From NCBI GenBank assembly GCA_964016885.1, contig OZ024743.1, positions 361,026,001 to 361,090,000 on the forward strand: DNA of 64,000 bases, read 5' to 3'. The translations under genes were made by a program, and so were the position numbers. This DNA is from Eledone cirrhosa. Lineage: Eukaryota. This document shows, one piece after another, positions 3,254 to 63,840 of the stretch (position 1 is its first letter; the number at the start of each line of letters is the position of its first letter). Under the pieces are notes generated by a model. That model made no database searches and was not told where the DNA came from. It saw only the letters and a list, made by a program, of their open reading frames with translations.

Positions 3254-6200
3254 AGTTGCATTTATCTTGCTTTATGTTCATACGAGTTATCACCAAGTCA
3301 CAACCAGTGACCTCAAGAGACAACAAGGTCCGCCATGTTCAAGAAAGAACATACATATTCACACATGCATCTTTAGTGTTTAGACATGTGATGTACTTAT
3401 ATTGACAGAATCTTCTTTAGTATATGGGCAGTTCCCATTAGTACTATCTTTTGTATTTCTCCTATACGCGGGTTTCCTGGGATTTGCGATAAGTAATCAA
3501 TAGACCCCTTAGGTATCATTCCCAGAGCGCCTACAACCACTGGTATTGTTTTAGGTCTCAATTTCCACATTTTTCCAATTTCTATCTCCAGGTCCTTATA
3601 CTTGCTCAATTTTTCAAATGCTTTTATAGATACATTCTTGTCTATTGGAACAGACATATCAATTAGCAGGCATACCCTCCTTTGAAAGTCCTTCAATATT
3701 ATATCAGGTCTATTTGCATCTATTTTTCGGTCTGTTTGGATGCTAAAGTTCCACAAGATTGAGATGTGATCTTTTTCAAGTATGTGAGGTGGTTGATGCT
3801 CCCACCAATTCTTTTGATGGGGCAGGTCAAAATGCTTACACATTATCCAATGTATGTATTGTGCAGCTCTGTCATGCCTGTTTAGGTATTCGGTTGGAGC
3901 TATAGGACTGCACATTGAAATTATATGGTCAATGGTCTCTGGTTGTTTTTTGCATACACGGCATAATGGGCTGCATCCATTTTTTATTATGTTGGGTTGG
4001 TAATTTTTTGTTGGCAGACACTGATCTTGTGCTGATATAATCAGTCCTTCAGTCTCCGATTTCAGTCGAGAGGATGCCAACCACTGATGGGTTAAAGTTT
4101 TGTCAACATCAGGATTGTTAGCTCGTTCTGGGTATTTTCCATGCAGAGGCTTTTCTTGCCATTTCTTAGCCAGTTTCTGTAGCAGTTCTTTATTTGCAGT
4201 TACTTTTACCTGCTTTGCTTTTTCTGTGTTTTCCATTTCAGCAGTAAATGGGACTTCTGAAATTTGTAGTCCATTACTGTATCTTTGTGCATCTTTTGTA
4301 ATGGAATATGATCTTTTGATGCTTTCGTGTTTCAAAACGAGTTTGATCATCCAATCATGTGATTCCCTTAGATATGTAGATAATCCAATTGTTGCAGTTT
4401 TCAACGCAATGTCTAACTGGATTAACACACGTCCTCCTTCTTTCCTAGGGAGATATATTCTATCTATATCTGCTTTAGGGTGATGCATTCTGTGCATGGT
4501 TAACAATTTTCGAATTTTTGTATCGAGCCTACGGATCTCTGTGCTTGACCAGTTGATGACATTGTAACTGTAGGTTACTACTGGTATGGCAAGCGTGTTT
4601 ATGGCATCGATCCTATTCCTTGCATTCAATTCCGTTCTTAAGATTGCTCTTACTCTGCGGTAACATTCCTTCCTTATCCTTTCCCTCATTGTCGAGTGCT
4701 TGATTCCGTCTCCTTCACAAACACCTAGATATTTGTAAGTTTTTTCTTGATCAAGTTCTCTTATCACGTTCCCCCGATCAAGATTAATGTCTGAACTCTT
4801 CAGCAGCTTTCCTCTGGTGAACGTTGCTTTGGCGCATTTATCTAGTCCAAACTCCATTTTAATGTCATCACTGAACTGCTTCACAGTGGATAATAGCCCT
4901 TGCAATTGTTCATCATATTTTGCAAATAGTTTCAGGTCATCCATGTAGAACAGGTGATTAATGGTTTTGTCATAGACTTTATATCCATGTTTTGTTTCAT
5001 TGAGCATTTTACTTAATGGTATAAGTGCGATGCAGAATAAAAGCGGTGATAAAGAGTCACCCTGAAAAATTCCACAATTAATATTAACTTCTCCAGCTTC
5101 CAGTGATTTTGTTTCACTATTCAAAAGGAGTGTCGTTTTCCATGTCTTCATACTGAATGACAAAAAACCCCTGAAAACGGGGGATATTTTGAAAATCTCT
5201 AAACATTTTTAAATCCAACTGTGTGGCAAACTATCGAATGCTTTTTTATAATCTATCCAAGCAATCGATAGATTTTTGTGTCTATTATGACAATCTTCCA
5301 GTATCATTTTGTTAATCAGAAGCTGATCCTTACAGCCATATGAGCCTCGTTTACACCCTTTCTGCTCAATGGGAAATAGGTCATTTGTTATCAGGTGGTC
5401 ATATGTGTATTCAGTTAGGACTGATGTTAACATTTTATACATTGTGGTCAAGCAAGTTATCGGTCTGTAATTTTGGGGATTGTTTGTCTCATCATTCTTC
5501 GGAAGCAGGAATGTAATGCCGTTAACTAGCGATGATGGTATCTTTTCTGGCTCCTTAACTATTTCATTGTAAAGTTGGGCTAACAGCTCATGAGACTCTG
5601 TGAAGGCATTTATCCAAAAGTTTTGTATTTTGTCTTTTCCTGGGGATTTCCATTTGCTGGTTTTTCTTAGAGCCAAGCGCAACTGTTCAACTGTTATATT
5701 TTCCCATGTTTGTTCCTCAAGGTGAGCTGTATCTTTCATTTGTCTGTCTCTCCATGGGGCATGTATGTTATGAACTTTTTCTTCGGCCCAGATCTTTTCC
5801 CAGAATTCTTGCACTTCCTCCTTGGATGGTATTGATTTAGCAGTTATTGTTGACTTACCAATTTTTCTGTAGAAGTTTCTTTGGTTGTTTTTGAACATAT
5901 TATTGTCCTTATAGAATCTAGATCGTTTTTCAAAGCGCCTTATACGAGCAGCTTTGGCCGACACTTTTTGCTTGATTATTTCTATCAGCACGACTATGTC
6001 ACATGTTGATTTTATACTGTACCTTTTTTTCAATTTTCTAAGTTTAGTTTGTTTAACATGTTCACCTACTTTATAGTTTGTTAAAATTTCTATGTCAGAT
6101 CGGAGAAGGTTTATTTGGCGATTAATGTTCTCTTGCCAAGTAGATTTCTTGTGGGAATTCCTTTGTTTTTTCATCTTCACTCCACATAAGTGAGTGGTGA

Positions 6201-7225
6201 CTTTAGCCGATGCATAATAGAGATGATTTAAATCAGTAATGTTTAGTTTGTTTGTGATGATAATGTTTTTGATAATTATGTTAGTCTTGTGTATTATCTT
6301 TTGGTTCTGTTTGGAGTTGTGGATCTTAGAGAGGGTGTCTCGTTGCCCCATGTCAGATTCTTTCATTTTCATCCATTCAATCATAATTTCATCCTTCAAG
6401 TTGGCAAGTTCATTCTCATTCATTTCTTTATCATTTACGATCTCATTATTTTCATTTGGAGTTTCATCCTGAGCATGCACTCCCTCCACTTTTTCGATCC
6501 TTTCTTTAATTTGTTCTGTTGCCAGTGATTCCGCCCCAACCCTGGGATTCAAAGTGTTACAGTTTACCTAGTTTTCACTGACACATGTTTCATTTTCCCT
6601 TCGCTGACTTTGTGCTAATAGCTTGATCTGATCAATTTCTATATCAGTTAGTAACTTTTTTCTTACAATATTTCTTCGTATATTGGCTAGTTTGTGACTG
6701 TCAATATAGCCTCTGTTTTCGGGATGTTTCTTTTTCCAGTTGATACATGTCTGTTCTGTATTCGATGTATTTGATGGGTAGTACATGGCAGTGTAGAAAG
6801 CCTCAAGGACTTCTTTATTATCTTCCCTTGACCATTTTTCTCTCTTTTTCTTTGGATTTCTTGGTGGTGAGCATGGAGGGCCAACAGTAGGAGTATTCCG
6901 GTTATGGGAGGTCTCCAGCTCCGAAGTGATGGGAAGGTTTGAACCATTAGCTGATTTTCCGACCCCAGTCTGGTTCCTCTCTGAGGGACGCGGCCCTTTT
7001 TTACCCGGGTGACGGCCGATCCGGTATGAGATTTTATCATTAGACATTTACTTTATTTTGTCGCGTTTTATCCTTATCCGCCAAGGGGTAATCATTTCGT
7101 GTTACCACTTCTAGAACGAGTGTCAACCAAGATTAGAAGGGTCGTTCTCCCCTAGAGACACGGCTATTCCCCGCCGGCCGCCATCCCGGTATATCTTGGT
7201 CACAGGGTTTTCTTTTTGTTGTTTT
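3222..7225 (-). mobile_element. Full-length R4/Dong-clade non-LTR retrotransposon
   Basis: 5' UTR 7048-7225, single ORF 7047-3397, 3' UTR 3396-3252, (AAT)n tail 3251-3222. Confidence 0.95.
3397..7047 (-). pseudogene. RT-CCHC-RLE polyprotein of about 1216 codons with two in-frame stops
   Basis: ORFs 6568-7047, 5209-6552 and 3397-5163 share one frame and are separated only by TAG (6568-6570) and TAA (5209-5211). Motifs: KWSREDNKEVLEAFY, GIFQGDSLSP, FYMDD, CRVC..ETIDHIISMC, RHD, RPDII..LIDMSVP..KLSKY. Confidence 0.93.
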
Positions 7226-12169: not shown

Positions 12170-12735
12170 AACTGGCGGACTTATTGAATTTTGACCCATG
12201 GCCGATTACAAAACACAAAAGACGCAATATCAAACACCCCTGCCCACATTAAAAAGTTTCACTGAGAAATAAGAACATGAAATTATAGAAAAAAAAAGAT
12301 AGATAGAAAAAAAAAAAAATTAACATCAACGCTTCGACAAATTTCCTTACAGATACATCGCCATATATTTCTTAACACCTCACTATGTCTTTTCCTTTTT
12401 ATTCGCACATTTTACTATTTCTACTCTTTCTCATATATATTACTTCTTCACCGTCTCCTCGCAAACTCTCCTGCCTGATATGATCCCCATACAACTCAAT
12501 CTAACCATGGCCACGTAGCCGAAGTGATAATTAGATTCAGTTTTTCATCTGCGATCGAAAATGAATATTTGAAACGATACTCTGAGCGAAACTGGTGTGT
12601 GAAAACCTACCTCTATTTAGAACAAAATAGCAATTATTTTATATGAATTAATTCCTTTTTATTGTTTATTGTAGTTTTGCATGTATATTAAAACACTTTA
12701 TGTTCATCTCTAAATAGTTTTTGTTATTTTTCGTA
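12170..12735 (+). mobile_element. Probable decayed PLE 3' end with degenerate HHR
   Basis: HHR-like TTTTCAT-CTG_CGA...GAAAC-TG-GTG-TGTGAAAA at about 12541-12605. Pyrimidine-rich UTR upstream, ends in TA repeats. Confidence 0.4.
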
Positions 12736-12741
12736 TATATA

Positions 12742-13309
12742 TTCACTAGCTCTGACAGTTTGGCAGGTGAACAGTGAGCTGTACTGATGAAGGATGACAC
12801 CACGAACATTTAGTGTCTGCGGTTCTGTTCACATGCCAAAACAAGAGCAAGAATGAAGGGTTCATTCTACTGACATGGCTATAAAATTGAGGCTTGTTTG
12901 CATAATTGCAAACGAATCGAATGTTATTATTAATATTCGCAAATCTCAGATTCCATGGTTGAATACAATAAATGGAATCTGAGATTTGCGAATATTAATA
13001 ATAACATTCGATTTGAGAGCAATTATGCAAACAAGCCTCAATTTTATAACCATGTCAGTAGAATGAACCCTTCATTCTTGCTCTTGATTTGGCATGTGAA
13101 CAGAACTGCAGACACTAAATGTTCGGGGTATCACCCTTCATCAGTACAGCTGACAGTTCACCTGCCAAACTGTCAGAGCTAGTGAAAGTATATGCTATTT
13201 TCAAAAATACGCAGTGACTAATCGGCTTGATTTGCATATTAGAAGACTGGCCGATCAGTCAGATCTGCATATTACCAGATCCACTGATCAGCCAGATTTG
13301 CATATCAGC
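12742..13309. mobile_element. HHR repeat family B, fold-back copy (arms 12742-12956 and 12972-13186) plus extension
   Basis: About 215-bp inverted repeat with a 15-nt loop. HHR in each arm. 13187-13309 carries three repeats of about 33 bp containing AT(T/C)TGCAT. Homologous to 52043-52367. Confidence 0.85.
13104..13151 (-). ncRNA. Type I HHR of family B (inverted twin at 12777-12824, + strand)
   Basis: AGCUGUA-CUGAUGA-AGGG-UGAUA-CCCC-GAAC-AUUUAGU-GUC^UGCAGUU. In the + twin stem I is extended by GUGAACAG/CUGUUCAC and UUUGGCA/UGCCAAA. One core A is missing (GAAC). Confidence 0.7.
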
Positions 13310-13312
13310 TAT

Positions 13313-13730
13313 ATTATCGTTTTCGGTGCACCCGGCCGATTATCCCACTCGATATGCAAATTGGGCTACTCAGCCGTTAATATGCATAAGGTAAGTATAT
13401 ACGTTCAACAATCTGGCAGGAAGGTATACGTTGCTGACGATAGCTAATAAGCTTGAAACTAGTACAGCGTTCCTTTGTCAGTGTTAAACAAACGAGCAAC
13501 GATTGTTGCTGGACACTACGGCTTAATACGGGATGTTTGTTTACAAACACACCGAGCATTAAAATAAATGTTCAGTGAACCCATATGTACATATATATAT
13601 GTGTGTATGTATATATATACATACTACTGTACGTCTGTATACATATATGTATGTACGTTTACATACTTATATTTAAGTAACAGCCGTACTAAGAGTGGGA
13701 AATGAAATTTCGTTTCTTTTTTCCGTTTAT
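13313..13730 (+). mobile_element. HHR repeat family C, one monomer of about 420 nt
   Basis: Near-identical to units at 25451-26215 and 51091-52041, where the tandem period is 422 bp. Confidence 0.88.
13428..13470 (+). ncRNA. Minimal type I HHR of family C
   Basis: ACGUUG-CUGACGA-UAGCU-AAUA-AGCUU-GAAAC-UA-GUA^CAGCGU with palindromic stem III (ACUAGU). Other copies at 25721-25763 (-), 25961-26003 (+) and 51653-51695 (+). Confidence 0.85.
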
Positions 13731-14012: not shown

Positions 14013-14094
14013 TTGTGTGTGTGTGCCAATGATTATGTGCAGTTTCCGTTTTACAAAATGGGCTAATGCATTATTTTCCAAATGATATATCTCT

Positions 14095-14283
14095 ATAATT
14101 GTTTCTACTTTTGGCAAAAGGTTAGCAATTATACCAGTACATTACTGGTGCTCTATTTATCGACCCCATAAGGATGAAAGGCAAAGTTAACCTCGTTCAT
14201 TTGAACTCAGCACGTAAAGGGACGTAACTAAGCTGTAAAGTATGTCGTCTCATCCTCTACCGATACTGCAAACCACCGGCCTT
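14095..14283 (-). mobile_element. tRNA-derived SINE (octopus OK-SINE-like) with 13-bp TSD
   Basis: B box GAGTTCAAAT and core TTTCATCCTT..GGGGTCGATAAA. ATCTCTATAATTG is duplicated at 14089-14101 and 14284-14296. Confidence 0.85.
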
Positions 14284-14995
14284 ATCTCTATAATTGAAAG
14301 CACTTGTTTGAACCTTACTTATTCTAATCAAAATATTCTAACTCTTATGGTTACATTTACATATTTAAGTTAATCATAATAGCGTATCTTACTTACTTTT
14401 TCTACTCACTCTTTTTGTCAGTAATATCAGTCGTAAACAGCCCGCAAATAGACAGTCATATATGAACACAGACATACAATCTTGTATCTAAGTAAATAAA
14501 ATAAAAATACAATAACCAGAAAGTAGTATAATAGGCTGTAGTATGATAGGAAATTATGCCTGGTTTAACTTTGCTGTGATACGAAAATACAGTTAATGTA
14601 TTTTTTCTCAAATGCCATATTCGTCAACTACGACAAAAATATCTATGAGGACACATAACAACATATATACTTCCAAGGTTTCTATCCTACCAGACAACAG
14701 GCATTGGATGAATAACTTGACAATATATCCAGGTGTTATTATTCTCCCGCGTTTCAAATTCACTCTAACTCTGAAGAAATACGTTTAATTCGGTGCATAT
14801 ATGATCTTATGTATGCGTGTATAGGTAGTCATATATAAAAGCAGTACTACACACTTTTAGCTTCCTTTTGCACTGGACTTTCACTGAAGAAATACATTAA
14901 ATAAAAATCCAACAGTGTGAAATAATAGATTATATATATATACATTTTTAACAGTAGTAACATCTTGATATCCATTGTGAATCGACCCGTAATTA

Positions 14996-18251: not shown

Positions 18252-18445
18252 AGGGCGATAGATTGGCAGTATCGGTAGAGGGTCGGACGCCATGCTTTGA
18301 CGCATTGAGTTACGGCCCTTGCCATTCTGAGTTCAAATCCCGCCGAGGTTAACTTTGCCTTTCATCCTTACGGGGTCAATAAAATAAAGTACCAGTAATA
18401 TACTAGGTAATTTGTGGCCTTGTGCCAAAAGTAAAAACAATTATT
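18252..18445 (+). mobile_element. tRNA-derived SINE with TSD
   Basis: A box TGGCAGTATCGG, B box GAGTTCAAATCC. TTATTATTACAATACTACT flanks both sides. Confidence 0.9.
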
Positions 18446-18542
18446 ATTACAATACTACTACTACTATTATTATCATTATTATTATTCATTGAGTCTCAGT
18501 CATTGATGTTATTTAACTGGAAAGTAAAAACAATTATTATTT

Positions 18543-18737
18543 AGGGCGGTGGATTGGCAGTATCGGTAGAGGGTCGGACGCCATGCTTTCCAGCATAGTT
18601 AAGCCCCTTTACGATCTGAGTTCAAATCCCGCCGAGGTTGACTTTTCCTTTCATCCTTACGGGATCGATAAAATAAAGTACCAGTAATGCACTGGGTAAT
18701 TGCTGGCCTTGTGCCTAAAGTAGAAACAATTATTATT
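18543..18737 (+). mobile_element. tRNA-derived SINE (different variant from its neighbour)
   Basis: Near-identical to the copies at 40028-40213 and 49428-49620. Confidence 0.9.
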
Positions 18738-19552
18738 ACAATACTACTACTACTACTACTATTATTATCATTATTATTATTCATTGAGTCTCAGTCATTG
18801 ATGTTATTTAAGTGGAAAGTTTGTTCAAATGAACATCAAGCTGCTACCTGCAGCCTCAGATGTTTAGGATGTATCAGAGGGTTCTTACTGTTCCCAACCT
18901 TTTGAAGTGTTCTAAAAACGAGGTTGGACTAATCGTCTTTAACCATCAGATATGTACTTTTATATGTAGATTCGTGTATAAATGTTGCTGAAGTATTAGA
19001 CACCCGATTTGTTATTTAGGGTTGCTACAAGAAATAGGTCATTGTCGATGTTATCACATCGGTGTTCCAATTTGGTCAAGATGGTAAATTATGATGACCG
19101 GATACAGAATGTCTGTGTTGTTTTAGGCTATTAAATTTCAGAAGACAACAATGAATAGATAAATACGTATGTAAAAGAATAAATAAAAAAGAAAAGAACA
19201 GAATAAAGAAATAAATGTACAAATAAATGGATGAGTAAATACATAAATGAAAAGTCGAAGATATAAAGATAAAAATTAGATAGATAATACAATAAAAATA
19301 AATAAAAATAAAAATAAATGAATAGGAACTAAAATGGATGAACGAAAAGGTAGAGGAGTAAACAAATAAATAAAGACAACAAACAAAAAACAGAAATATG
19401 AAAAAAAAAAAAGCGAATGCCTAAACGGACCAGTTCAGATATCCTCGCGAATTAACATCATGTGTGTACAGTGAAGCATGTAATATGTGATAAAATATTT
19501 ATATGATGTTACACTGAATCTTTGTTCCCTAATTATATATATATATATATAT

Positions 19553-20430: not shown

Positions 20431-20445
20431 ATATATGTATATATC

Positions 20446-23345
<2,900 letters not shown>

Positions 23346-23420
23346 TATATATATATATATATATACATACATATATATATACATATATATATATACACAT
23401 ATATTTATGTGTGTGTGTGT

Positions 23421-23775
23421 GTACGTATGCGTACTTGCATTTATGTATCAGCTGTGCTAGGGCGGGAAATAAAATTTTAATTTTGTATTTAATATTCGGC
23501 ATGGTCAGCCATAACTCGCTTGGTATGCAAATAAAGCTACCCACCCGAGGTATACTTCAGAAAACACTATATATTTTCAACCGTTCAACATTCGCAGAAT
23601 GGCATGCAGCCTGATCAAGGGTAATGACCCAGAAACATGCTGATTGTTCCTCGATGCCAGTGTTGAACAAATGGATGACGATTGCTGATCGGTATGGCAC
23701 TGCTTTAATCGTTTGCTTACAAACGAATCGAATATTATTATTAATGTTCGATATAACCCATATGTATGTGTACAT
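23421..23775 (+). mobile_element. HHR repeat family D (divergent relative of B and C)
   Basis: Shares ATGCAAAT, CGTTCAACA / CAGTGTTGAACAAA and TTACAAAC with C, and CAAACGAATCGAAT.TTATTATTAAT with B. Broken HHR at 23607-23642 (CTGATCA..GAAACAT, cleavage triplet lost). A related fragment lies at 26260-26330. Confidence 0.7.
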
Positions 23776-23794
23776 ATGTGATATATATATATAA

Positions 23795-25405: not shown

Positions 25406-25450
<45 letters not shown>

Positions 25451-25455
<5 letters not shown>

Positions 25456-26215
25456 GGAAAATATGAAACGAAATTTCATTTCAAACTCTTAGTACGGCTG
25501 TTACTTAAATATAAGTATGTACACGTACACACATATATGTATACAGACGTACTGTAGTATGTATATGTATATAGATACATGCACACATATATATATATAT
25601 GTACGTATGGATTCATCGAACATTTATTATAATGCTCAGTGTGTTTGTAAACAAACATCCCGTATTAAGCCGTAGTGTCCAACAACCATCGTTGCTCGTT
25701 TGTTCAACACTGACAAAGGAACGCTGTACTAGTTTCAAGATTATTAGCTATCGTCAGCAACGTATACCTTCCTGCCAGATTGTTGAACGTATATACTTAC
25801 CTTATGCATATTAACGGCTGAGTAGCCCAATTTGCATATAGAGTGGGTTAATCAGCCGCGTGCACCGAAAACGATAAAAGGAAAAAATTAAAATTGGGCT
25901 ACTCAGCCGTTAATATGCATAAGGTAAGTATATACGTTCAACAATCTGGCAGGAAGGTATACGTTGCTGACGATAGCTAAAAAGCTTGAAATTAGTACAG
26001 CGTTCCTTTGTCAGTGTTGAACAAACGAGCAACGATGGTTGCTGGACACTACGGCTTAATACGGGATGTTTGTTTACAAACACACCGAGCATTATAATAA
26101 ATGTTCGGTGAATCCATACGTACATATATATATATATATGTGTGCATGTATATATATATATACATACTTAAGGTAGGTCTGTATACATATATGTATGTAA
26201 GTGTACATACTTATA
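25451..26215. mobile_element. Family C fold-back pair (minus monomer 25451-25877, plus partial 25891-26215)
   Basis: Inverted copies of the 13313-13730 unit, each with an HHR, flanked by (TA)n. Confidence 0.9.
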
Positions 26216-26354
26216 TATATATATATATATATATTTGTGTGTGCGTGTATATACAGTATATGTGTGTGGACCTATGCATACGTACATTATATATCAGGAG
26301 TACTAGGGCGAGAAATAAAATTCTAATTTTATATATATATATATATATATATAA

Positions 26355-27359: not shown

Positions 27360-30300
27360 TTAGGGAAGCAGAAGATTACTTATTGTGATCCAGTTCGTGG
27401 TTAAGAAAGCCAGTTTCATGGATGGTTTCAACGTACGGTTAGGCGTAACTCCACAAGTTTGTAAGAATTCCATTCAATCTTGGAGTATAAAGTATAAAAT
27501 GGAAAACACAGGTAAGCATTAAGAGAAGGATTTTATCCAGGTATTTACGTCCGTTTCATTGGTAAGTGCAACCTTATATTGCTATACTGCAAATAGCAGC
27601 CACTCAATGATAATTGTTGTTCACGTCCAAATTTTCAAAAGAGTGAGTAAGTTACTCTTGAAATAGTTCTTAATATATAGAGAAAAATTTTTTTTTAAAT
27701 TGTATTTACTGGTATAGAGAGAGAGGAAGGGGAAATAGAAGGTGAGGGGACAAACGGAAAAGTAGAGAGAGAGAGAGAGGAAGAGGGACAAGAGTTAAGA
27801 AGTAGAGTGACAAACTGAGATGGAGGGAGGCGTAGAGATGGAAGGACTTATTGATCAGTTTTGATATGTAGACTTCATGTCGTCGAATGTGGTGAGTTAA
27901 AGAGAATTAAATTGATCATAGTGGGAGGGATGGATAGAGAGAGAAAGAGATAACTATATATATATAAAATAAAGATAAAGATAATAATGACAAAAATAAA
28001 AGCAAAGAAGGGGGGAGAAAGAAGAAAAGAAAAGATAGCCAAAAAGGGTAGGAAAGGAAGGAAGAAAACGAAGAAATAGAAGAGGAATCAAGGAGAAGGG
28101 AGGGATATAGGTAGTGGTTTTTGTGGGTAATTAAAAGGGTCTAGATACAATAAGAGGGTACAAAGTCTGAGTATATGCAGTTTGTCAGTTGGTAGTAAGA
28201 GGTTAAGGGTTCGATTTGCACTTGTAGTGCGAACACTTTTCTTTGAGTCTATGGCTACAATAAATTGATCTTTCGATTTTATTGTTGAGTAACTTATTCT
28301 TCGAACTCAAATTGTGGAACAGCTCAAGGTCACATAATCGACAGCTTCTCATACCACTCCGATATGGGGGCGCGTTCGATAATTTTTCAACTTCAGTGTG
28401 TATTGATGGTTACTTTCCCTCAGTTGCCAGGTCTTGATTGCAGGGTAGTTACATAACGATGCTGGGAATGTTTCATTGCGTAACGGTGTGTATACCAACG
28501 GGCTTCAAATGTATTCCCAGTCGCTCCGATGTAATACCATTTCGGGAAAATTAGTAAACATATATTAGACACAGTGATAGCACAGATGAAGAATAAACTA
28601 GTGATTAAACTATGGGGTAACGCTACCGAAACAATTAAGTGGTTTAACTATATAGCTAACAAAAATTATTTAAATTTATACAATTTGACATTAACGACTA
28701 TTACTCCTCTATATCCACCAACACCTTGGATAAAGCCTTAGCATTCGCCAAAGCCAATTCTGACCTAACAGACGACGAGATAAAAATCATATTAGCTGCT
28801 AGGAAAACAATAATTAAATTTGAAAACGCCTATTGGGAACGTAAGGATAGATTATATAACTTTGACATCACGATGGGGGCTAACGACTCGGCTCAAGTCA
28901 CAGATTTAGTAGGTATTTACATAGCCAGTAGTTTACAGAGTGAGTTTAGCAACCTTCACGGTGGAATCTACAGAGACAACGCCCTTCTCCTAGTAAAGAA
29001 CCTAAATAACCAAGCATAGAAAGACTCCGTTAGAATATTAGAAAGACTCTCGGGAAACTAGGCCTTAGCATAACGTATGAGCGTAGCACTAAAGCAGTTA
29101 ACTTTTTAGACGCCACGCTTAACCTAAATACGGGACTTATAAGACCTTTTCAGAAGATTAATGAAAACTTAGCATACATCAACTGTAACTCAAACCACCC
29201 ACTATCCATAATTAAATCCATTCCACGCAGCATATCCCTTAGGATTTCCCGCCTTTCGTCTAACCGACAAATCTTCGAGGAACATGCAGAATACTACAAT
29301 ACCGCATTAGACAAGGCAGGACACTTAGATAGAGTAGGATATATATATTAAAGCCTCCGCAAAGCGCACACGAACACGCATAACACAAACTCCAGAAACA
29401 CACGCACACACACACTTACTCATAGAACTACAAAGTATACGGTAAATAGAAATACAACATCGAAATCAAACAAGTCACGCAATAGAAAATATATTTGGTA
29501 TAACCCCATATTTAACACCTCTATTAGTACTAACCTACCCTCTACCTTCTTTATAATAATAAATAAGCACTTTCCAGATTTACATAGATATAGCAAAATC
29601 CTTAACACTAAATCTATTAGACTATCTTACACCACGGCACCAAATATAGAGGCACACATTAAGATGCTTAACGATAAAAAGATACATAACAACACCAGAA
29701 CACAAATTTACAACAATAACAATACAATCACCATTGAACACAACAGAATATCTAATACACAACCACCCACTAATATGCAAACAAAACGTAACACACTTGT
29801 ACAGGCATCGCAGCCCACCAATAATGCCAAAGTTGCCCATGACAAGAATTGTAACTGCCACCAACCTGAAACCTGTCCATTACATAATGAATGTATGCAG
29901 TCTAACCTGGTTTACCAATCAACAGTGGAATCAGACAACTAGAAATGTTATGACATCGGAGCGACTGGGAATATATTTAAAGCCCGTTGGTATACACACC
30001 GTTACGCAATGAAACAGCATCGTTATGTAACTACCCTTGCAAACAATACCTGGCAACTGAGGGAAAGTAACCATCAATACACCCTGAATTGGAAAAAATT
30101 ATCGAACGCGCCCCCATATCGGAATGGTATGAGAAGCTGTCGATTATATGACCTTGAGCTGTTCCACATTTTGAGTTCGAAGAATAAGTTACACAACAAT
30201 AAAATCTAAAGATCAATTTATTGTAACCATAGACTCAAAGAAAGGCTTTCGCACTACAAGTGCAAATCGAACCCTTAACCTCTTACTACCAACTGACAAA

Positions 30301-30998
30301 CTGCATATACTTAGACTATATTCCCTCTTATTGTATCTAAACCCTTTCAATTACCCACAAAAACCAATACCTATATCCCTCCCTTCTCCTTCATTCCTCT
30401 TCTATTTCTTCGTTTTCTTCCTTCCTTCCCTCCCCTTTTTGGCTATCTTTTCTTTTCTTCTTTCTCCCCCCTTCTTTGCTTTTATTTTTGTCATTATTAT
30501 CTTTATCTTTATTTCATATATATATAGTTATCTCTTTATACCCCAATCTCTCTCTCTATCCATCCCTCCCACTATGATAAATTTAATTCTCTTTAACTCA
30601 CTACATTCGACGACATGAAGTCTACATATCAAAACTGATCAAAGAATCCTTCCACCTCTACGCCTCCCTCCATCTCAGTTTATCACACTACTTCCTAACT
30701 CTTCTCCCCCTTCCTCTCTCTCTATACTATTCCGTTTGTCTCCTCACCTTCTAATTCCTCTTCCCCTCTCTCTATACTAGTATATACTATCCCCCAAACA
30801 TCTTTTTCTCTATATATTAAGAACTATTTCAAGAGTAACTTACTCACTCTTTTGAAAATTTGGACGTGAACAACAATTATTATTGAGTGGCTGCTATTTG
30901 CAGTATAGCAATATAAGGTTGCATTTACCAATGAAACCGTCGTAAATACCTGGATAAAATCCTTCTCTTAATGCTTACCTGTGTTTTCTCTTTTATGC
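27360..30998 (+). mobile_element. Hydra-like PLE: truncated RT + GIY-YIG with an inverted 3' duplicate of about 1.2 kb at the 5' side
   Basis: Plus strand from 28544: GKISKHIL..QFDINDYY..FDITMGANDSAQVTDLVGIY..IYRD..NFLD..SNHP; linker CNCHQPETCPLHNEC..VY; IGATGNIFKARW..H; CRL..E. 27490-28543 is the reverse complement of 29942-30990. Confidence 0.9.
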
Positions 30999-31011
30999 TA
31001 TATATATATAT

Positions 31012-38845: not shown

Positions 38846-40027
38846 GAGGTTAAGATGTATGACAATTAGGATTTAGAATATATTTAAGCCTATTTTTGGA
38901 AAGGTTGTCACATATGTATATATAAATAGACGAGTAAATAATTGTATAACCATGGGATTGTTGGAGGTTTCCACTTGTCCATTAATAATTTAATCCTATC
39001 TGATAGCTTCTAATAAGTACCTGCATATCACACCATCATACACATATTGATAAATTTTGGATTCATTTTATACGCGTATATGGCAGACATTTTATTAAAA
39101 ATTTGACAAACAAATTTGCGGCATAAATGAAATAGTTTAGTACAATTTCAATTACGATGTTAAGTCTTGTGTAAAGACGTAAACACGATGTTCTAACTTT
39201 CAGTTTTAATCAGTAAATTGTTGTCATTTTGTAATTAATTAAATAAACGTTTTTATGCTATGATATGTATTCTTCATATATGGTGTATAATCATTTATAA
39301 TGTAAATTCTGTATAGAATACACACCAAGAAAAAACTACTAAAATATGCATTGTTGTGTTACACGAAAGCATTCATACTACCTCCCTCTGACAACCCTGA
39401 AGTGTAGTTTTTGACGGTGTTGGTATTTAGTTCATCTAACCTCTGGAAATATGACTCTTGAAAAACCCCTTACATTATATCTTGTTCACTCATCCTCATT
39501 GTGTCGATATCACTTCCAAAAACACTCAGGAAGAAACGATGCAGGCCGCAGAAACTTGTTTAGAATCAATGAAGTCAAAAGAAACTTAAAAATCCTACCA
39601 GGCGCGGATGTATTTTCGATAATAATACAATAAAGTAAAATTAAATTGCTCTATTTTCCCTAGAAAATACGATACTGAAAATTATTCCGGCCTACCATAC
39701 ATAGGCATACCTGGAAGACAAAAACAAAAAAACAAAAGACCGTTTGAACTCCGACGTACACGGTTTATCCCTCCCTGTTTTTTGTTTCATATAAACTTAC
39801 ATCAGAACTCACATACAATCAGCTGGAAGTAAAGAAAGGATTGCACTTTGTCCTGATTCTGAAAATATTGCACTTACATTTAACAACCCTTATATCATGA
39901 TTTACTACTCAATCCTGATTTCGTGAAGAACAACTTCCCAAAATATCGAAGGAAAAATGAACCCGTATACTTGGTAAATTCTTAACGCAACTAAAGAGAA
40001 GGTGTTTCAGTATTCAGGCATATAATA

Positions 40028-40213
40028 ATATAATTGTTTCTACTTTTGTCACAAGGCCAGTAATTCACCAGTGCATTACTGGTACTTTATTTTATCGACC
40101 CCGTAAGGATGAAAGGCAAAGTCAACCTCGGCGGGATTTGAACTCAGATCGTAAAGGGACGTAACTATGCTGGAAAGCATGGCGTCCGACCCTCTACCGA
40201 TACTGCCAATCCA
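40028..40213 (-). mobile_element. tRNA-derived SINE
   Basis: Reverse complement of the 18543-18737 type. Confidence 0.9.
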
Positions 40214-42140: not shown

Positions 42141-42190
42141 CATACATACATACATACATACATACATACATACATACATACATAATACAT

Positions 42191-45100
42191 CAGTCAACGC
42201 GATCAGTCGCATATTTTGGCGTGGGAGACTATTTATTAAATTTAAGATGAATACTATCTCCGACAGTAATGCCACAACTACAGCCAGGTTGAATAACTGG
42301 TTATTCTTCTAACTATCCCTTCTGAAGACACCTTTTATTCGAATTCGTAGAGATATCCGACTAAATACATAATTCATTTTACAAGGATTTGCTACAAACA
42401 GCATGGCTGAACACAACATCAACAAGAAAATTAAAGAAGTATCGAAGACAAAAAACAAAGAAGGTAATCAAACTTTATTCAGTTGTAGCTACAGAAGGAA
42501 CCGAAATTATAAATCGCATTTCTCTTGGAGTTGCGAACTTAATAATGATTTATTTAATTGTTATAAAATGGCAAAAAATAATCCCTCCATTGGCTATATA
42601 AATAGAATGAAGCTACACTGGGACGAAATGCACCCAGGGCTAAACTATTTCACAGCGAAACAATTACCGCAACAAGCGACGTTTGTTGAACGTAAAAATA
42701 AGATAATTATTATTAATTGTAAGTCCCCCACAACAAACATGTAATCAACAACACGTGCTACAGATCGCCATGCTACTAGAATTCCTAGCAGCCAGGTCGA
42801 ACACCGCCTTGAAACAACTATGCCTGTACCATCTAAGTCTACCTCGAATGCTGGAGAAAACACTATCGATAATAATAATAATCGAAGAAATAATAATAAT
42901 AATCGAATAAATGTGACAGCACGTATACCATCCGAGTCTACCGCGACTGTTGTGGAAAATACTATCGATAATGATAATCAAAAGTATAAACAATTGAAAA
43001 TATCCCTCAACGAAATCTTCCAGAGAGAAATTAACTCATGTATAAATATCTCTCTGGCTGAACGTGTTAAAATGACAATGGTGAATAAAAAACCAAATAA
43101 TGAAATACTACGTGTTATTGACGAAATTGGGGATGAATATTTACGACGGATAAAAACCCCAACCTTTTGGCAATCAACGCCTGTTTATATGCCTTAGCAA
43201 TGAAAGTGAAGCATTATCTTGGTTAGAGCAGAGATATTAACAAGAACAAAACACCACCAAAAATACCATCATATATAACTAAAATAGAAAAAAAGAGTGC
43301 TGACCTACGAAAAAACATAGGACATGTGATAATGCTCCTTACATGCAAACAAACACAAAAAAACCTCACTCCTCACCAACGAAGAGTCAAAAATAAAATA
43401 GAGACGATGTTTGGTAACAGTAGCACCAGAACTCTCCAATATAAGCTGATCACCCTCAAACAAGAATTGAGAGCTGTTAGCGAAAAACGCCAATACCTGA
43501 AGAAGGTAGATGAGAGAAAAGTGCTTAATAAAAGATTCAGACGAAACCAAACATCAGTCTAGAGAGATATGAAGGGCAAAATAATAAGTGTCACTGAGGC
43601 CCCATCCCAGAAAGACATAGATTCCTTTTGGAGAAAAATATGGGGTGAAAAGAAGAATTTCAACCAAGACGCCGTGTGGCTAAGAGAAATCCGAAAGAAC
43701 TATTGCTCCTACACTACAACAAAAACATACGAAATAAGTGAGGGTACCCTTGAGACTGTGATAGGAAAATTCCAAGATAAGAAAACACCAGGAAGGGACA
43801 TGATTGTCGGCTACTGGTACACAAAACTAATATTCTATCGGAGGTATCTAACTGACCTCTACCAACAAGTTCTTAAGGGAGATACACTTATAGCAGAATG
43901 GTTGACATTAGCACAAACGTTACTGGTCCCCAAGAACAAAGACATCCACTTGGCTAAAAACTACCGACCCATTGCATGCCAGAACCTGATGTATAAGATG
44001 TATACAGCCTGCCTCAACCTGTTCCTCCAAGATCACTGTGAAAATAATAACATCATCACAGATGAACAAGCAGCTGGAAAGAAAAGGGTTTGGGGATGTG
44101 CTGAACAACTCCTCATCAACAAAACTGCGATGTCGGAGGTGCGAAAACTTAGGAGGAATATGACTACAGTCTGGCTGGACTACAAGAAAGCTTTCGATTC
44201 TGTTCCCCACTCTTGGGTGATAGAGGCCCTCCAACTTGCTAAAGTCCCAGACATTATTGTCAGAGCCATAGAGAGGCTGTCTTCTTCTTGGGCTACTATC
44301 CTAAGGTTAAAGACAGAGAGGGAGGACTCTATTTTCACTAATAAAATAAAATATTGCAGGGGTATATTTCAGGGGGGACAGTCTCTCTGTGATATTGTTC
44401 ATCTTGTCATTAAACCCCTTGTCCTTTCTGCTCAAGAAATGTGAGGGATACATCATTGGCTCACAGGAGGACAGAAATACGAACCTAACCCATAACTTCT
44501 TTGTGGACGATCTGAAACTCTATGCCAAAACATGGATGAGATGAAGAAAAATCTTGACCTGGTTACAACGTTCTCAAAGGATATAGGAATGGAGTTTGGC
44601 CAAGATAAATGCTCATACATGACTGTAAAGCGGGGAAAAACAACAACCCAATCTAGCAACATTGTCATCAATGGTCTAACTGTTTCACCGATATCTGATG
44701 AGGACTGCCACAGATACCTGGGGATAGATGAGAAGATATCCTATAATGGTATCTGTAATAAAGAACGCGTAACCATGGAATACTATACTCGATTAAGAAA
44801 GATCTGGTCATCGGAACTCTCTGCGCAAAACAAAATAGTGGCTCACAGTGTGTTTGCTGTGCCTGTCCTAACACCAACGTTTGGAATACTCAATTGGACG
44901 ATAGACGAAATCCGAGCAGTTGATGTTGGAACTCGAAAAATACTGAACAACACCGGAAACTTCCACATCAACAGTGACATAGACCGCCTTTACTTGAAAC
45001 GTAAGCAGGGAGGCAGAGGCCTAACATCAGTCCAGACATTTGAATGTCGCATCATATCTCCCCGACAACATCTACGAACCTCGAAGCGTAGGAGCCCGCT

Positions 45101-46256
45101 TCTCGAGCAAGTCTATCTGCATGAAACAGATAAGATCATGAGGATTGGGAAGGAACTCCTTCAGAGATATTCCCTGTGTGACAATCAAAACCTCACACCC
45201 AGTGATGTCGCTCAGCAGTATCGCAGTGAATCCATGGATGAAAAACTGCATGCCTAACAGCAAACAATCATGCATGGATATGTTGCCAGGAAGCTCCAGA
45301 GTGAGAGTAATATAGATAAGGAAAATAGTCTATCTTGGACCAACAACCGCTATATTGGCTCCCACGTTGAAGGATACGCTTTTGCAATCCAAGAACAGGA
45401 GATTAGCACGAAATACCTGATTCACAAAAGAGATAGGGATGCAGGCAAAACACCTAGATGTGATAACAAGTGCAGACTCTGCAGAGCTAACATCGAGGAT
45501 ATCACCCATGTCATCAGCAGCTGGTCAAAGATGTCATCGCGGTACTATCTGCCTATGAGGCATGATGTAGTGGCCAAAACACTGTACAATGCAGTTCGTA
45601 AAAAAGATAGCCCCGATAATAAACACATTAAAAGCTACAACAATGTGGAATACATTCATGTACATAATATGAAAAAGTACTGGTGGAATGTTACAGTAAA
45701 AACCCCTATAAAATGCAGGCATAACAGACCAGATATTATGATATGGGACAGGGAGAAGAAAACATGCACAGTAGTGGAAATTAGCTGCCCAGCAGATGCC
45801 AATATAATATCATGGATTAGTGAAAAGGAGAATATTTATGCAGAACTGATGAGAAATCTGCAGATACTCCACCCTGATTACACCTTCAGATTTATGCCTG
45901 TGATTATTGGGGCACTGGGATATGTTAGTAACTGCCTCAATACAAATCTTGAGAAGCTAGGCTTCACAGGAACAGAAAGAACACAACTAGTTAGGAAATT
46001 ACAAGTACAATCCATTAATGGAACAGTAAAAATATGTAAAACATTCAAAAAGTTCTAATGACTCCATATACACATGTACAGAAAAAATAATATACACATG
46101 CACACATATAACTCAAATTATACACCTCCACACATACACTAACATCCATACTGCACACACATGCTTGCATATATATATACTTAGTTGATGTTATGTACAT
46201 TCCAATTAGAGAGACTTGTATCTATGTTTTAGGAATTATAAACCCTGAAAAACATA
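42191..46256 (+). mobile_element. Full-length degenerate R4/Dong-clade element in (TACA)n, copy 1
   Basis: ORF pieces 42403-46058 with NYRPIAC, WLDYKKAFDSVPHSW, GIFQG, FVDDLKL, CRLC..EDITHVIS, RHD, RPDIMIWD..VEISCP..K..Y, PVIIGALG. TACA repeats at both ends. Confidence 0.93.
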
Positions 46257-49337: not shown

Positions 49338-49427
49338 GAATACAAATAAAATATAGAGTTATTAACTAATATTGATATCCTGCAATAACAAGCTCAAGTC
49401 TAAATACTGAGCATTAAATAAAATATA

Positions 49428-49620
49428 AGGCGGTGGATTGGCAGTATCGGTGGAGGGTCGGACGCCATGCTTTCCAGCATAGTTACGTCCCTTTATGATC
49501 TGAGTTCAAATCCCGCCGAGGTTGACTTTGCCTTTCATCCTTACGGGGTCGATAAAATAAAGTACCAGTAATGCACTGGGTAATTGCTGGCCTTGTGCCT
49601 AAAGTAGAAACAATTATAAT
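49428..49620 (+). mobile_element. tRNA-derived SINE
   Basis: A and B boxes, core and tail as in the other copies. Confidence 0.9.
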
Positions 49621-49764
49621 ATTAATAAGTGTGGAAGTAAACACAGTAAATTCTGCGTATAAAATTACGAGGGTAGATTTCACCACAAATGTTATATATA
49701 TTTAAACTGAAGCATACAGTTTGGTACAAGGTTTCCTATACATACCGTATCAATAACGATTTCA

Positions 49765-51090: not shown

Positions 51091-52041
51091 ATAAACGGAA
51101 AAAATGAAACGATATTTCATTTCCCACTCTTAGTACGGCTGTTACTTAAATATAAGTATGTACACGCACATACATATATGTATACCGACGTACAGTAGTA
51201 TGTATATATATATATATATACATATATGCACACATATATATATGCACGTATGGATTCACCGAATATTTATATATATGCACACATATATATATGCAACGGT
51301 GGTTGCTAGACACTACGGCTCAATACGGGATGTTTGTTTACAAACACACCGAGCATTATAATAAATATTCGGTGAATCCATACGTGCATATATATATATG
51401 TGTGCATGTATGTATATATATATATATATACATACTACTGTACGTCGGTATACATATATGTATGTACGTGTACATACTTATATTTAAGTAACAGCCGTAC
51501 TAAGAGTGGGAAATGAAATATCGTTTCATTTTTTCCGTCTATCGTTTTCGGTGCACCCGGCCGATTAACCCACTCGATATGCAAATTGGGCTACTCAGCC
51601 GTTAATATGCATAAGGTAAGTATATACGTTCAACAATGTGGCAGGAAGGTATACGTTGCTGACGATAGCTAACAAGCTTGAAACTAGTACAGCGTTCCTT
51701 TGTCAGTGTTGAACAAACGAGCAACGGTGGTTGCTAGACACTACGGCTTAATACGGGATGTTTGTTTACAAACACACCGAGCATTATAATAAATATTCGG
51801 TGAATCCATACGTGCATATATATATATGTGTGCATGTATGTATATATATATACATACTACTGTACGTCGGTATACATATATGTATGTACGTGTACATACT
51901 TATATTTAAGTAACAGCCGTACTAAGAGTGGGAAATGAAATATCGTTTCATTTTTTCCGTTTATCGTTTTCGGTGCACCCGGCCGATTAACCCACTCGAT
52001 ATGCAAATTGGGCTACTCAGCCGTTAATATGCATAAGGTAC
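51091..52041 (+). mobile_element. Family C: inverted fragment (51091-51270) plus about 1.8 head-to-tail units
   Basis: ATCGTTTTCGGTGCACCCGG at 51541 and 51963 (period 422). HHR at 51653-51695. Confidence 0.9.
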
Positions 52042-52042
52042 G

Positions 52043-52367
52043 TATATATGCTATTTTCAAAAGTACACAATGATTGATCGGCCTGATTTGCATATTAGCA
52101 GACTGACTGATCAGTCAGATCTGCATATTAGCAGATCCACTGATCAGCCAGATTTGTATATCAGCAGACTGGCGAGTCAGTTTCCTGTATACGAGCGGTA
52201 AATGGCCGGCGTTGCCAAATTCAAACAAAAAATAAAATGTTCGCTCTACATGGCTGAATACAATCAATTCAATCTGAGTTTTTCGAATATTAATAATAAC
52301 ATTCGATTTGGTTGCAATTATGCAAACAAGCCTCAATTTTATAGCCATGTCAGTAGAATGAACCCTT
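52043..52367 (-). mobile_element. Family B partial copy, circularly permuted relative to 12954-13309
   Basis: Block order is [13187-13309]-[83 new nt]-[12954-13072]. It stops before the HHR. Confidence 0.85.
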
Positions 52368-52374
52368 TATCGAA

Positions 52375-57138
<4,764 letters not shown>

Positions 57139-57224
57139 GAAGGGATATTTAATTTGTTGGAAAACCAACAAATATAAATGTTTATAACTGATTCAGAGTA
57201 CTCGACATATTTCTGGAATTTATA

Positions 57225-58135
<911 letters not shown>

Positions 58136-60060: not shown

Positions 60061-60167
60061 CCTAACGTAAACTTTAGCAGGAGTTCACAACAAGGGGATT
60101 ACCATATAATTAAAAGAATTTCACGTTTACATACATACACACATAAATACATACATACATACAATGA

Positions 60168-63100: not shown

Positions 63101-63840
63101 ATGGAGATGTTGCCAGGAAGCTCTAGAGTGAGAGTAATATAGATAAGGAAAGTAGTCTATTTTGGACCAACAACCGCTATATTGGCTCTCACTCTGAAGG
63201 ATACGCTTTTGCAATCCAGGAACAGGAGATTAGCACGAAATGCCTGATTCACAAAAAGATAGGGATGCAGGCAAAACACCTAGATGTGATAACAAGTGCA
63301 GACTCTGCAGAACTAACATCGAGGATATCACCCATGTCATCAGCAGCTGTCCAAAGATGTCATCGCGGTACTATCTACCTATGAGGCATGATGTAGTGGC
63401 CAAACCACTGTACAATGCAGTTCGTAAAAACGATAGCCCCGATAATAAACACATTAAAAGCTACAACAATGTGGAAGACATCCATGTACATAATATGAAA
63501 GAGCACTGGTGGAATGTTCCAGTAAAAATCCCAATAAAATGCAGGCATAACAGACCAGATATTATGATATGGGACAGGGAGAAGAAAGCATGCACAGTAG
63601 TGGAAATTAGCTGCAGATGCTAAGCATATACCCATGCACACACACAACTCAAAAGATACACATACACACATACAATAACATCCATATCTACACATGCATG
63701 CATGCATACATAATCTACCTTGTTGATGTTGTGTAAATTCCAATGAGAGAATCTATTGTGTCTATGTTAGAAACCGACTCACTCTCTATTGGGAACAAAT
63801 TTGTGAAATTATAAAACCAGATGAACATACATACATACAT
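60168..63840 (+). mobile_element. Degenerate R4/Dong-clade element in (TACA)n, copy 2
   Basis: Colinear with 42191-46256 and has the same 5' start. Deletion of about 130 bp at 62937 and loss of the RLE C-terminus at about 63620. TACA repeats at both ends. Confidence 0.93.

What the first reader, a model, noticed from the sequence alone, without database searches (positions are those of the whole stretch)
12742..13309. Family B reconstructs as a closed circle of about 440 nt
Here the order is X(12954-13186)-Y(13187-13309). At 52043-52367 it is Y-Z(83 nt)-X. The two copies are circular permutations of one unit of about 439 nt, as expected from reverse transcription of a circular or multimeric RNA. 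The HHR sits at the tip of a long extended stem I.
Basis: partly seen in the sequence, partly recalled or inferred. Interest (0 to 1): 0.7.

Follow-up and report, generated by a model that had tools for sequence, protein, structure and literature searches.

The report
Circular hammerhead retrozyme with Penelope ends
This is a damaged copy of a 439-base non-coding repeat found thousands of times in this animal genome; its copies are rotations of one unit that carries a predicted self-cutting RNA motif, and their ends indicate that Penelope-type jumping-gene enzymes likely pasted them in, likely from a circular RNA that has not yet been observed.

Summary
The circular permutation is real: the unit is 439 nt, with 3,890 exact 24-mer matches genome-wide. 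It carries a type I hammerhead motif on an extended stem I, read on the window's minus strand. Termini are not random: 125 of 132 free 3' ends fall at two sites about 35 nt apart, mostly in (TA)n, and 36 of 38 two-armed insertions have one of each. This is the Penelope-like (PLE) tail footprint; PLE reverse transcriptase starts internally, so fixed ends do not refute a circle. Arms cross the predicted cleavage site seamlessly (60 of 114), reach 821 nt but not two full turns in the loci examined, and stop about 2.6 times faster in the second turn. One insertion is a hybrid with a Neptune-type PLE. A U6-like octamer-TATA box precedes the hammerhead. Both window copies are atypical, and the first has a damaged core. 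Verdict: PLE-mobilised non-LTR retrozyme (about 0.9); circular RNA template (about 0.65), not tested on RNA. The class is known, and this scan already noted what is probably this family, and sister families, on other DNA.

The parts
12735..12956 (+). Family B left arm, unit positions 178-399 in hammerhead sense; inverted partner of the right arm; its 5' end falls in the unit's own TATA-like box
   Evidence: (L001 1282-1503)
12779..12822 (+). Type I hammerhead motif of the left arm, damaged (GAAC core, broken stem II); predicted cleavage after 12817
   Evidence: sequence
12954..13309 (-).
13089..13168 (-). Type I hammerhead on extended stem I; CUGAUGA at 13144-13138, predicted cleavage after 13111; core reads GAAC in this copy, GAAAC in most copies
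13185..13237 (-). Predicted U6-like promoter: octamer ATGCAAAT (13237-13230) and TATA-like box 45 nt downstream (13192-13185, one change in this copy); predicted start near unit position 209
   Evidence: function inferred
13296..13303 (-). Upstream octamer of the three-copy octamer repeat in Y (unit positions 68, 101, 134)
12954..13020 (-). 3' region with a hairpin shared by families A, B and E, and the 'short' insertion end (unit 403, about 12968)
13314..13730 (+). Neighbouring family A unit (428-nt period, hammerhead motif at 13434, octamer-TATA), ending in (TA)n; a sister family, likely a separate insertion at the same TA site
52045..52370 (-).
   Evidence: (L061)
52166..52248 (-). Z, 83 nt; contains the 'tail' insertion end (unit 425-439) about 20 nt into its sense strand
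51091..52048 (.). Two-armed family A insertion (minus arm ending at 51091 in (TA)n, plus arm of about 1.8 units) abutting the second B copy

Best explanation
Family B is a 439-nt non-coding repeat with a hammerhead motif whose copies are rotations of one unit, likely inserted into (TA)n by the enzymes of a Neptune-type Penelope-like retrotransposon, likely copying a circular RNA. Shown: cyclic unit, two fixed 3' ends about 35 nt apart, scattered 5' ends, head-to-head arms with one end of each type, one direct hybrid with a Neptune-type pLTR, a conserved hammerhead core, and an octamer-TATA box spaced as in host U6 genes. Inferred cycle: (1) the rare copies that hold the promoter plus two hammerheads (10 of 28 two-hammerhead arms; about 107 such arms in all) are transcribed from about unit position 209; (2) two self-cleavages at 260|261 release a 439-nt monomer, which a host ligase closes; (3) the PLE protein nicks (TA)n on both strands and starts reverse transcription internally at about 403 and about 435-439, giving the short and tail ends; (4) each cDNA runs round the circle and usually stops within a turn, slowing in the second turn, where it would have to displace its own product; (5) the arms join head to head. 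The circle is what would put the external promoter back upstream of the ribozyme in the daughter copy.
For: Period 439. 3' ends: 64 tail, 61 short, 7 other of 132; 105 of 132 followed by TA-rich DNA; 36 of 38 two-armed insertions have one end of each type. Control anchored on the hammerhead: 20 of 26 at the two sites, 5 cut by a SINE, 1 other. Independent public contigs show loose (TA)n ends at the same two sites. The same architecture is described for PLEs (PMC8557442) and explained by two internal RT start sites (PMC11167929). Hybrid L219: B short end, direct junction into a PLE pLTR, PLE tail end; the full junction was seen once among 40 scored hits, with one partial 82% hit not inspected; that pLTR family is of similar divergence (88-94% between copies) and follows an RT-GIY-YIG C-terminus in several loci. 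For a circle: 60 of 114 arms cross the cleavage site by more than 10 nt; indel rate there 0.5-1.6% against a median of 1.2%; 25 of 28 two-hammerhead arms extend upstream of the predicted start site in their second turn, yet none of 30 has a third hammerhead; stop rate per 20 nt is 0.109 in the first turn and 0.286-0.29 beyond it; two turns of one arm disagree at 42 of 316 diagnostic sites against 97 expected, two arms at 70 of 590 against 180; the circular fold is -153.9 kcal/mol, z -11 against 40 shuffles. Hammerhead core columns are 97.6% conserved against 94.1% overall, p = 2e-4; 132 of 169 cores are intact.
Against: No arm reaches two full units (longest 821 nt), whereas rolling-circle copying can give long arrays. 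There is a roughly twofold excess of 5' ends at the cleavage site (13 of 35 against 7 expected, p = 0.014, window chosen after seeing the data), so some templates may be cleaved linear RNA. In vitro, an anole PLE used mainly uncleaved RNA and did not need its hammerhead (PMC11167929). B has no significant sequence match to the young intact PLE family (best 19 nt, E 0.15) and the helper link rests on one hybrid. Rfam gives no hammerhead hit; the stem I variants that keep pairing are mostly one-sided G-U changes. T4-T5 runs at unit 164, 183, 429 and 436 could stop Pol III before the second hammerhead. Only 3 of 5 independent top U6 loci have the octamer box.
Confidence: 0.65

Rival explanations
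1. Same PLE-driven element, but the template is an uncleaved, linear, more-than-unit-length transcript of a genomic partial tandem; the hammerhead is incidental to copying.
For: Unprocessed RNA was the main substrate of the anole PLE in vitro (PMC11167929). Arms cap below two units. Autonomous PLEs here also form tandems of about 4.13-kb period.
Against: 25 of 28 long arms run upstream of the predicted start site with no pile-up there (2 of 28 at 204-215). No three-hammerhead array among the 30 loci analysed, and no pair of adjacent matches among the 44 listed. No shared transduced flank among 71 free 5' ends. Linear copying alone would shorten the family each generation (inference). The start site is itself only predicted.
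Confidence: 0.2
2. The template is the cleaved linear monomer (261 to 260), and the RT jumps from its 5' end to the 3' end of the same or another monomer.
For: Twofold excess of 5' ends at 256-266 (13 of 35, p = 0.014).
Against: Most arms that reach the site pass it (60 of 114 arms extend beyond it) and the site shows no indel excess; successive turns share alleles.
Confidence: 0.1
3. B is only the pseudo-LTR of a longer coding PLE, or a DNA-level tandem repeat or fold-back, with no RNA circle.
For: Retrozymes resemble pLTRs in Xenopus (10.64898/2026.07.22.740005). A 77-codon frame crosses the unit junction. The two window copies look secondarily rearranged.
Against: Arms that run on past the tail site continue into Z and Y, not into an ORF (17, 30, 59); the frame is open in 8 of 39 copies; no coding sequence is shared upstream; fixed ends in (TA)n at dispersed loci are not a satellite pattern. 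Ancestry from a lost pLTR remains possible.
Confidence: 0.05

Closest known systems
Metazoan non-LTR retrozymes (Cervera and de la Pena 2020, PMC7229834: passages and Discussion read; Li, Clavereau and Pollet 2026, 10.64898/2026.07.22.740005: parts 1-3 of 5 read)
   Same: Non-coding, low-GC (38%) unit in the 150-450 bp range, one type I hammerhead per unit, highly self-paired predicted circle, thousands of copies, co-occurring PLEs; both papers propose PLEs as the helper.
   Different: B is dispersed as 0.1-1.9-unit arms rather than long tandems; only about 1% of arms have two hammerheads. It shows PLE short and tail ends, head-to-head arms, (TA)n targeting, a hybrid with a PLE and a U6-like box, none of which appear in the parts of those papers that I read. 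Its RNA is untested, whereas coral, mussel and axolotl circles were shown.
Canonical EN+ Penelope-like elements, Neptune type (Craig et al. 2021, PMC8557442: passages read; Frangieh et al. 2024, PMC11167929: parts 1-2 of 4 read)
   Same: 5' truncation, partial tandems, inverted 5' arm, 30-40 bp tail at one end only, microsatellite targets, hammerhead upstream of the two 3' ends.
   Different: No RT or GIY-YIG ORF; no significant nucleotide match to the pLTR family tested.
Non-autonomous Chlamys elements such as MRC1 (PMC8557442, passage read)
   Same: ORF-less PLE passengers forming partial and head-to-tail tandems.
   Different: Those generally resemble their helpers at the 3' end, and most Chlamys elements lack canonical hammerheads; B has a hammerhead and no detected match to a helper.
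Host U6 snRNA promoter (this genome)
   Same: Octamer-like box followed by TATA at 46-48 nt (U6) against 45 (B), 42 (A), 43 (E).
   Different: No longer sequence match above shuffles; B's box lies inside the predicted RNA circle.

Membership tests
Non-LTR retrozyme | Type I hammerhead motif in each unit | tested here: met
   Motif and stems in 132 of 169 copies; core more conserved than the rest. No Rfam hit. The window copy's core is damaged.
Non-LTR retrozyme | Short non-coding unit without LTR-type ends | tested here: met
   439 nt (17); no conserved ORF (41, 50). PBS and PPT were not searched for.
Non-LTR retrozyme | Tandem copies with at least two hammerheads | tested here: met
   44 exact two-hammerhead matches genome-wide, about 107 estimated; none with three in 30 examined. 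Rare, and less than two full units.
Non-LTR retrozyme | Self-cleavage activity | not testable with these tools
   Needs in vitro transcription.
Non-LTR retrozyme | Expressed as a circular RNA | not testable with these tools
   No RNA holder was listed; only indirect genomic statistics.
PLE-mobilised (non-autonomous) element | Two 3' ends 30-40 nt apart, tail at one end only | tested here: met
   125 of 132 ends; 36 of 38 two-armed insertions; control 20 of 26 (39).
PLE-mobilised (non-autonomous) element | 5' truncation, inverted 5' arm, partial tandems | tested here: met
   78 of 81 adjacent arm pairs head-to-head; 5' ends all round the unit (34).
PLE-mobilised (non-autonomous) element | Microsatellite (TA)n target | tested here: met
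   105 of 132 free 3' ends; also in public contigs.
PLE-mobilised (non-autonomous) element | Identified autonomous partner | tested here: inconclusive
   One hybrid with a Neptune-type pLTR; no sequence homology to that lineage's young family (46). Other PLE families were not surveyed.
Autonomous PLE | RT plus GIY-YIG ORF | tested here: not met
   No ORF in the unit or shared upstream of it.
U6-type (type 3 Pol III) promoter | Octamer-like box and TATA at host spacing | tested here: met
   Spacing 45 against 46-48 in 3 of 5 independent U6 loci; background chance of such a TATA 0.067.
U6-type (type 3 Pol III) promoter | Transcription start about 30 nt after TATA | not testable with these tools
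   No RNA reads.

The most novel reading that the evidence does not exclude
A self-contained RNA circle that carries its own U6-type promoter and hijacks a Neptune-type Penelope enzyme, which primes both strands of a (TA)n break at two internal sites of one circle; the tripled stop rate after one turn is the genomic trace of strand displacement on a circular template. This would be direct evidence that PLE reverse transcriptases copy ribozyme circles, and a minimal model for how PLE pseudo-LTRs and tandems arise.
Probability: 0.45. Interest if true: 0.75.

Novelty: new variant of a known kind. Interest (0 to 1): 0.55.

Why it matters
That PLEs mobilise animal retrozyme circles has been proposed from co-occurrence and pLTR similarity; in the papers I read it was not shown from insertion structure. 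Family B supplies a defined 439-nt substrate, mapped RT start sites, a candidate helper family, and a quantitative signature (seamless crossing of the cleavage site, slower second turn). These can be tested with the existing in vitro PLE assay, and they bear on the open question of how PLE tandems and tails form.

Tried and rejected
Rfam: no hammerhead hit at gathering score or at E up to 10; only hairpin look-alikes. RNA: no RNA holder listed; four runs of unknown kind were laid as contigs and say nothing on expression. 77-codon ORF across the junction: rejected, open in 8 of 39. B as pLTR of the young 1,217-codon PLE family: no match. PLE fragments near B in L023, L025, L117, L146, L149, L176 and L216: read from coordinates as separate insertions at shared TA sites; only L219 shows a direct junction. 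Longer sequence match between B and U6 upstream DNA: not above shuffles. SINE as part of a larger B circle: rejected, since it sits in only one turn of L036 and has variable 5' junctions. Assembly fold-back artefact for the window palindrome: unlikely, the arms differ at 13 of 210 sites. Look-up of earlier findings by sequence and near this place gave nothing. Literature searches listed no paper describing a cephalopod retrozyme; one search listed only PMC8557442. I did not see the supplements of any paper; they may list such families.

Full report
Observation. The window lies in a 3.0-Gb animal assembly; the best named relative of a window RT is from Octopus vulgaris at 64% identity, so the host is likely a cephalopod (inference). 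Self-comparison confirms X and Y at the stated coordinates and the order Y-Z-X at 52045-52370, although only 122 nt of X is there. It also shows that 12735-13193 is a 92% palindrome and that family A abuts B at both sites. A motif scan puts a type I hammerhead on the minus strand of X, so all unit coordinates below are in that sense, on a natural 439-nt unit from L019, with CUGAUGA at 227 and predicted cleavage at 260|261.

Family size and samples. A 24-mer has 3,890 exact matches and 0 for the reversed control; 76 of 154 covering arms carry it exactly, giving roughly 7,900 sites. I used 30 loci found with X-Y, 30 with the hammerhead, 30 with the junction, 87 stretches covering the first 100 motif matches on contig C1 (83 after removing 4 duplicates), and 30 of 44 two-hammerhead matches. 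Eleven duplicate loci, and segments under 40-45 nt or under 75-78% identity, were dropped before the counts.

In the 83-locus sample, 64 of 132 free 3' ends fall at 425-439/1-10, 61 at 396-410 and 7 elsewhere; those windows are 9% of the unit. 105 of 132 are followed by TA-rich DNA, and 36 of 38 two-armed insertions have one end of each type. That sample is anchored near the 3' end, so I checked 26 hammerhead-anchored arms: 14 short, 6 tail, 5 interrupted by a SINE, 1 other. Contigs of four public runs (one study, kind unknown) show (TA)n loose ends at the same two sites. 78 of 81 adjacent opposite arms are head-to-head, and 5' ends are spread round the unit. Craig et al. (PMC8557442, passages) describe this layout for PLEs: 5' truncation, partial tandems, an inverted arm, and a 30-40 bp tail at one end. 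Frangieh et al. (PMC11167929, main text) show that the tail lies between two internal RT start sites. Fixed 3' ends therefore identify the enzyme class and do not mark the ends of the RNA.

Helper. [quoted passage not shown] B has no significant match to them. L219 is a hybrid: (TA)n, a 745-nt B arm with the short end, a direct junction without TA spacer into a pLTR of the same PLE lineage (78% to the young family), an inversion, and a PLE tail end in (TA)n. The full junction was found once among 40 scored hits; one partial 82% hit was not inspected. That pLTR family has two 3' ends, head-to-head arms and 88-94% identity between copies, like B, and follows an RT-endonuclease C-terminus in several loci. 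One hybrid is suggestive, not proof.

Hammerhead. 132 of 169 copies have an intact core. Core columns are 97.6% conserved against 94.1% overall (p = 2e-4), and stem I extends 5 + 8 + 6 bp, with its two commonest variants giving G-U pairs. No convincing two-sided covariation is seen, and Rfam has no hit. Activity is untested.

Circle or linear. For a circle: 60 of 114 arms pass the cleavage site and 11 exceed one turn; indels at the site are at background; both turns of an arm and both arms of an insertion share diagnostic alleles (42 discordant against 97 expected; 70 against 180); the closed unit folds at z -11. An octamer with TATA 45 nt downstream matches the spacing in 3 of 5 independent top U6 loci (46-48 nt, start 30 nt after TATA), predicting a start near 209. 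A linear transcript from there could not template sequence upstream of 209 in the second turn, yet 25 of 28 two-hammerhead arms (three tandem duplicates counted once) go further, and none of 30 has a third hammerhead. The stop rate rises from 0.109 to about 0.29 per 20 nt after one turn, as expected if the RT must displace its own cDNA (inference). Against: no arm exceeds 821 nt; 13 of 35 nearby 5' ends fall within 256-266 (7 expected, p = 0.014, post hoc), so some templates may be cleaved; the anole PLE preferred uncleaved RNA in vitro; T runs could stop Pol III early; the start site is predicted only. I put the circle at about 0.65.

The window copies. 12735-13309 is tail-to-tail, with ends at 399 and 417, an arrangement seen in 3 of 81 pairs. 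Its arms share 7 rare variants, including the damaged core, so they come from one template or were homogenised; loss of the centre after insertion is likely (inference). The 52045-52370 copy ends at 183, joined to family A where both TATA-like boxes meet, likely a later deletion (inference).

Comparison and novelty. It works like a metazoan non-LTR retrozyme (PMC7229834, passages and Discussion) and meets the sequence-level criteria; cleavage and circular RNA are untested. PLE mobilisation is proposed there and in 10.64898/2026.07.22.740005 (parts 1-3 of 5) from co-occurrence and pLTR similarity. My six literature searches listed no description of a cephalopod family or of these insertion marks in retrozymes; supplements were not seen. 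Earlier notes of this scan report the same footprint for sister families and a 438-441-nt family with a U6-like box, probably this one; they are unchecked AI notes, and one gave me the lead for the U6 test. Verdict: new variant of a known kind; interest 0.55.

Noticed in passing
window 13314-13730, 25423-26219, 51091-52048; L145 256-1487: Family A: 428-nt unit with its own hammerhead motif and octamer-TATA box, two-armed insertions, up to about 2.9 units in L145.
   Followed up: partly
window 23400-23790; L067 644-1020: Older sister family E sharing the octamer, hammerhead stem II region and 3' hairpin with B in the same order.
   Followed up: partly
window 57085-57687 and 20443-21529: Two more repeats with hammerhead-like motifs (57472 and 57325, in a palindrome; 20904); no octamer in the 120 nt upstream.
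   Followed up: no
unit position 369 in 12 of 83 loci; window copies 14094-14285, 18252-18820, 40023-40213, 49423-49624: A SINE-like repeat of about 200 nt (tRNA-derived by recalled resemblance, not tested) is often inserted at one ATTATT site of B, with variable 5' junctions; the same repeat interrupts several U6 upstream regions.
   Followed up: partly
L182-L197: Young PLE family with an intact 1,217-codon frame, many near-identical copies, tandems of about 4.13 kb and head-to-head pairs; a candidate source of enzyme for an in vitro assay.
   Followed up: partly
L233-L235 (G000:C3:17746489-17756088): A two-hammerhead B fragment amplified as part of a roughly 2-kb tandem repeat, a DNA-level duplication.
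   Followed up: no
window 3397-7047, 42147-46228, 60128-63768: Non-LTR retrotransposon remnants with RT domains; an R4/Dong-like assignment is recalled from motifs and not tested.
   Followed up: no
window 53843-56023, 27486-31004, 22849-23556: Degenerate PLE-like coding remnants, one as an inverted pair.
   Followed up: partly
run X4, L019 1652-1768: One contig at depth 644 covers the hammerhead region with divergent letters; the run's kind is unknown, so this is only a lead.
   Followed up: no
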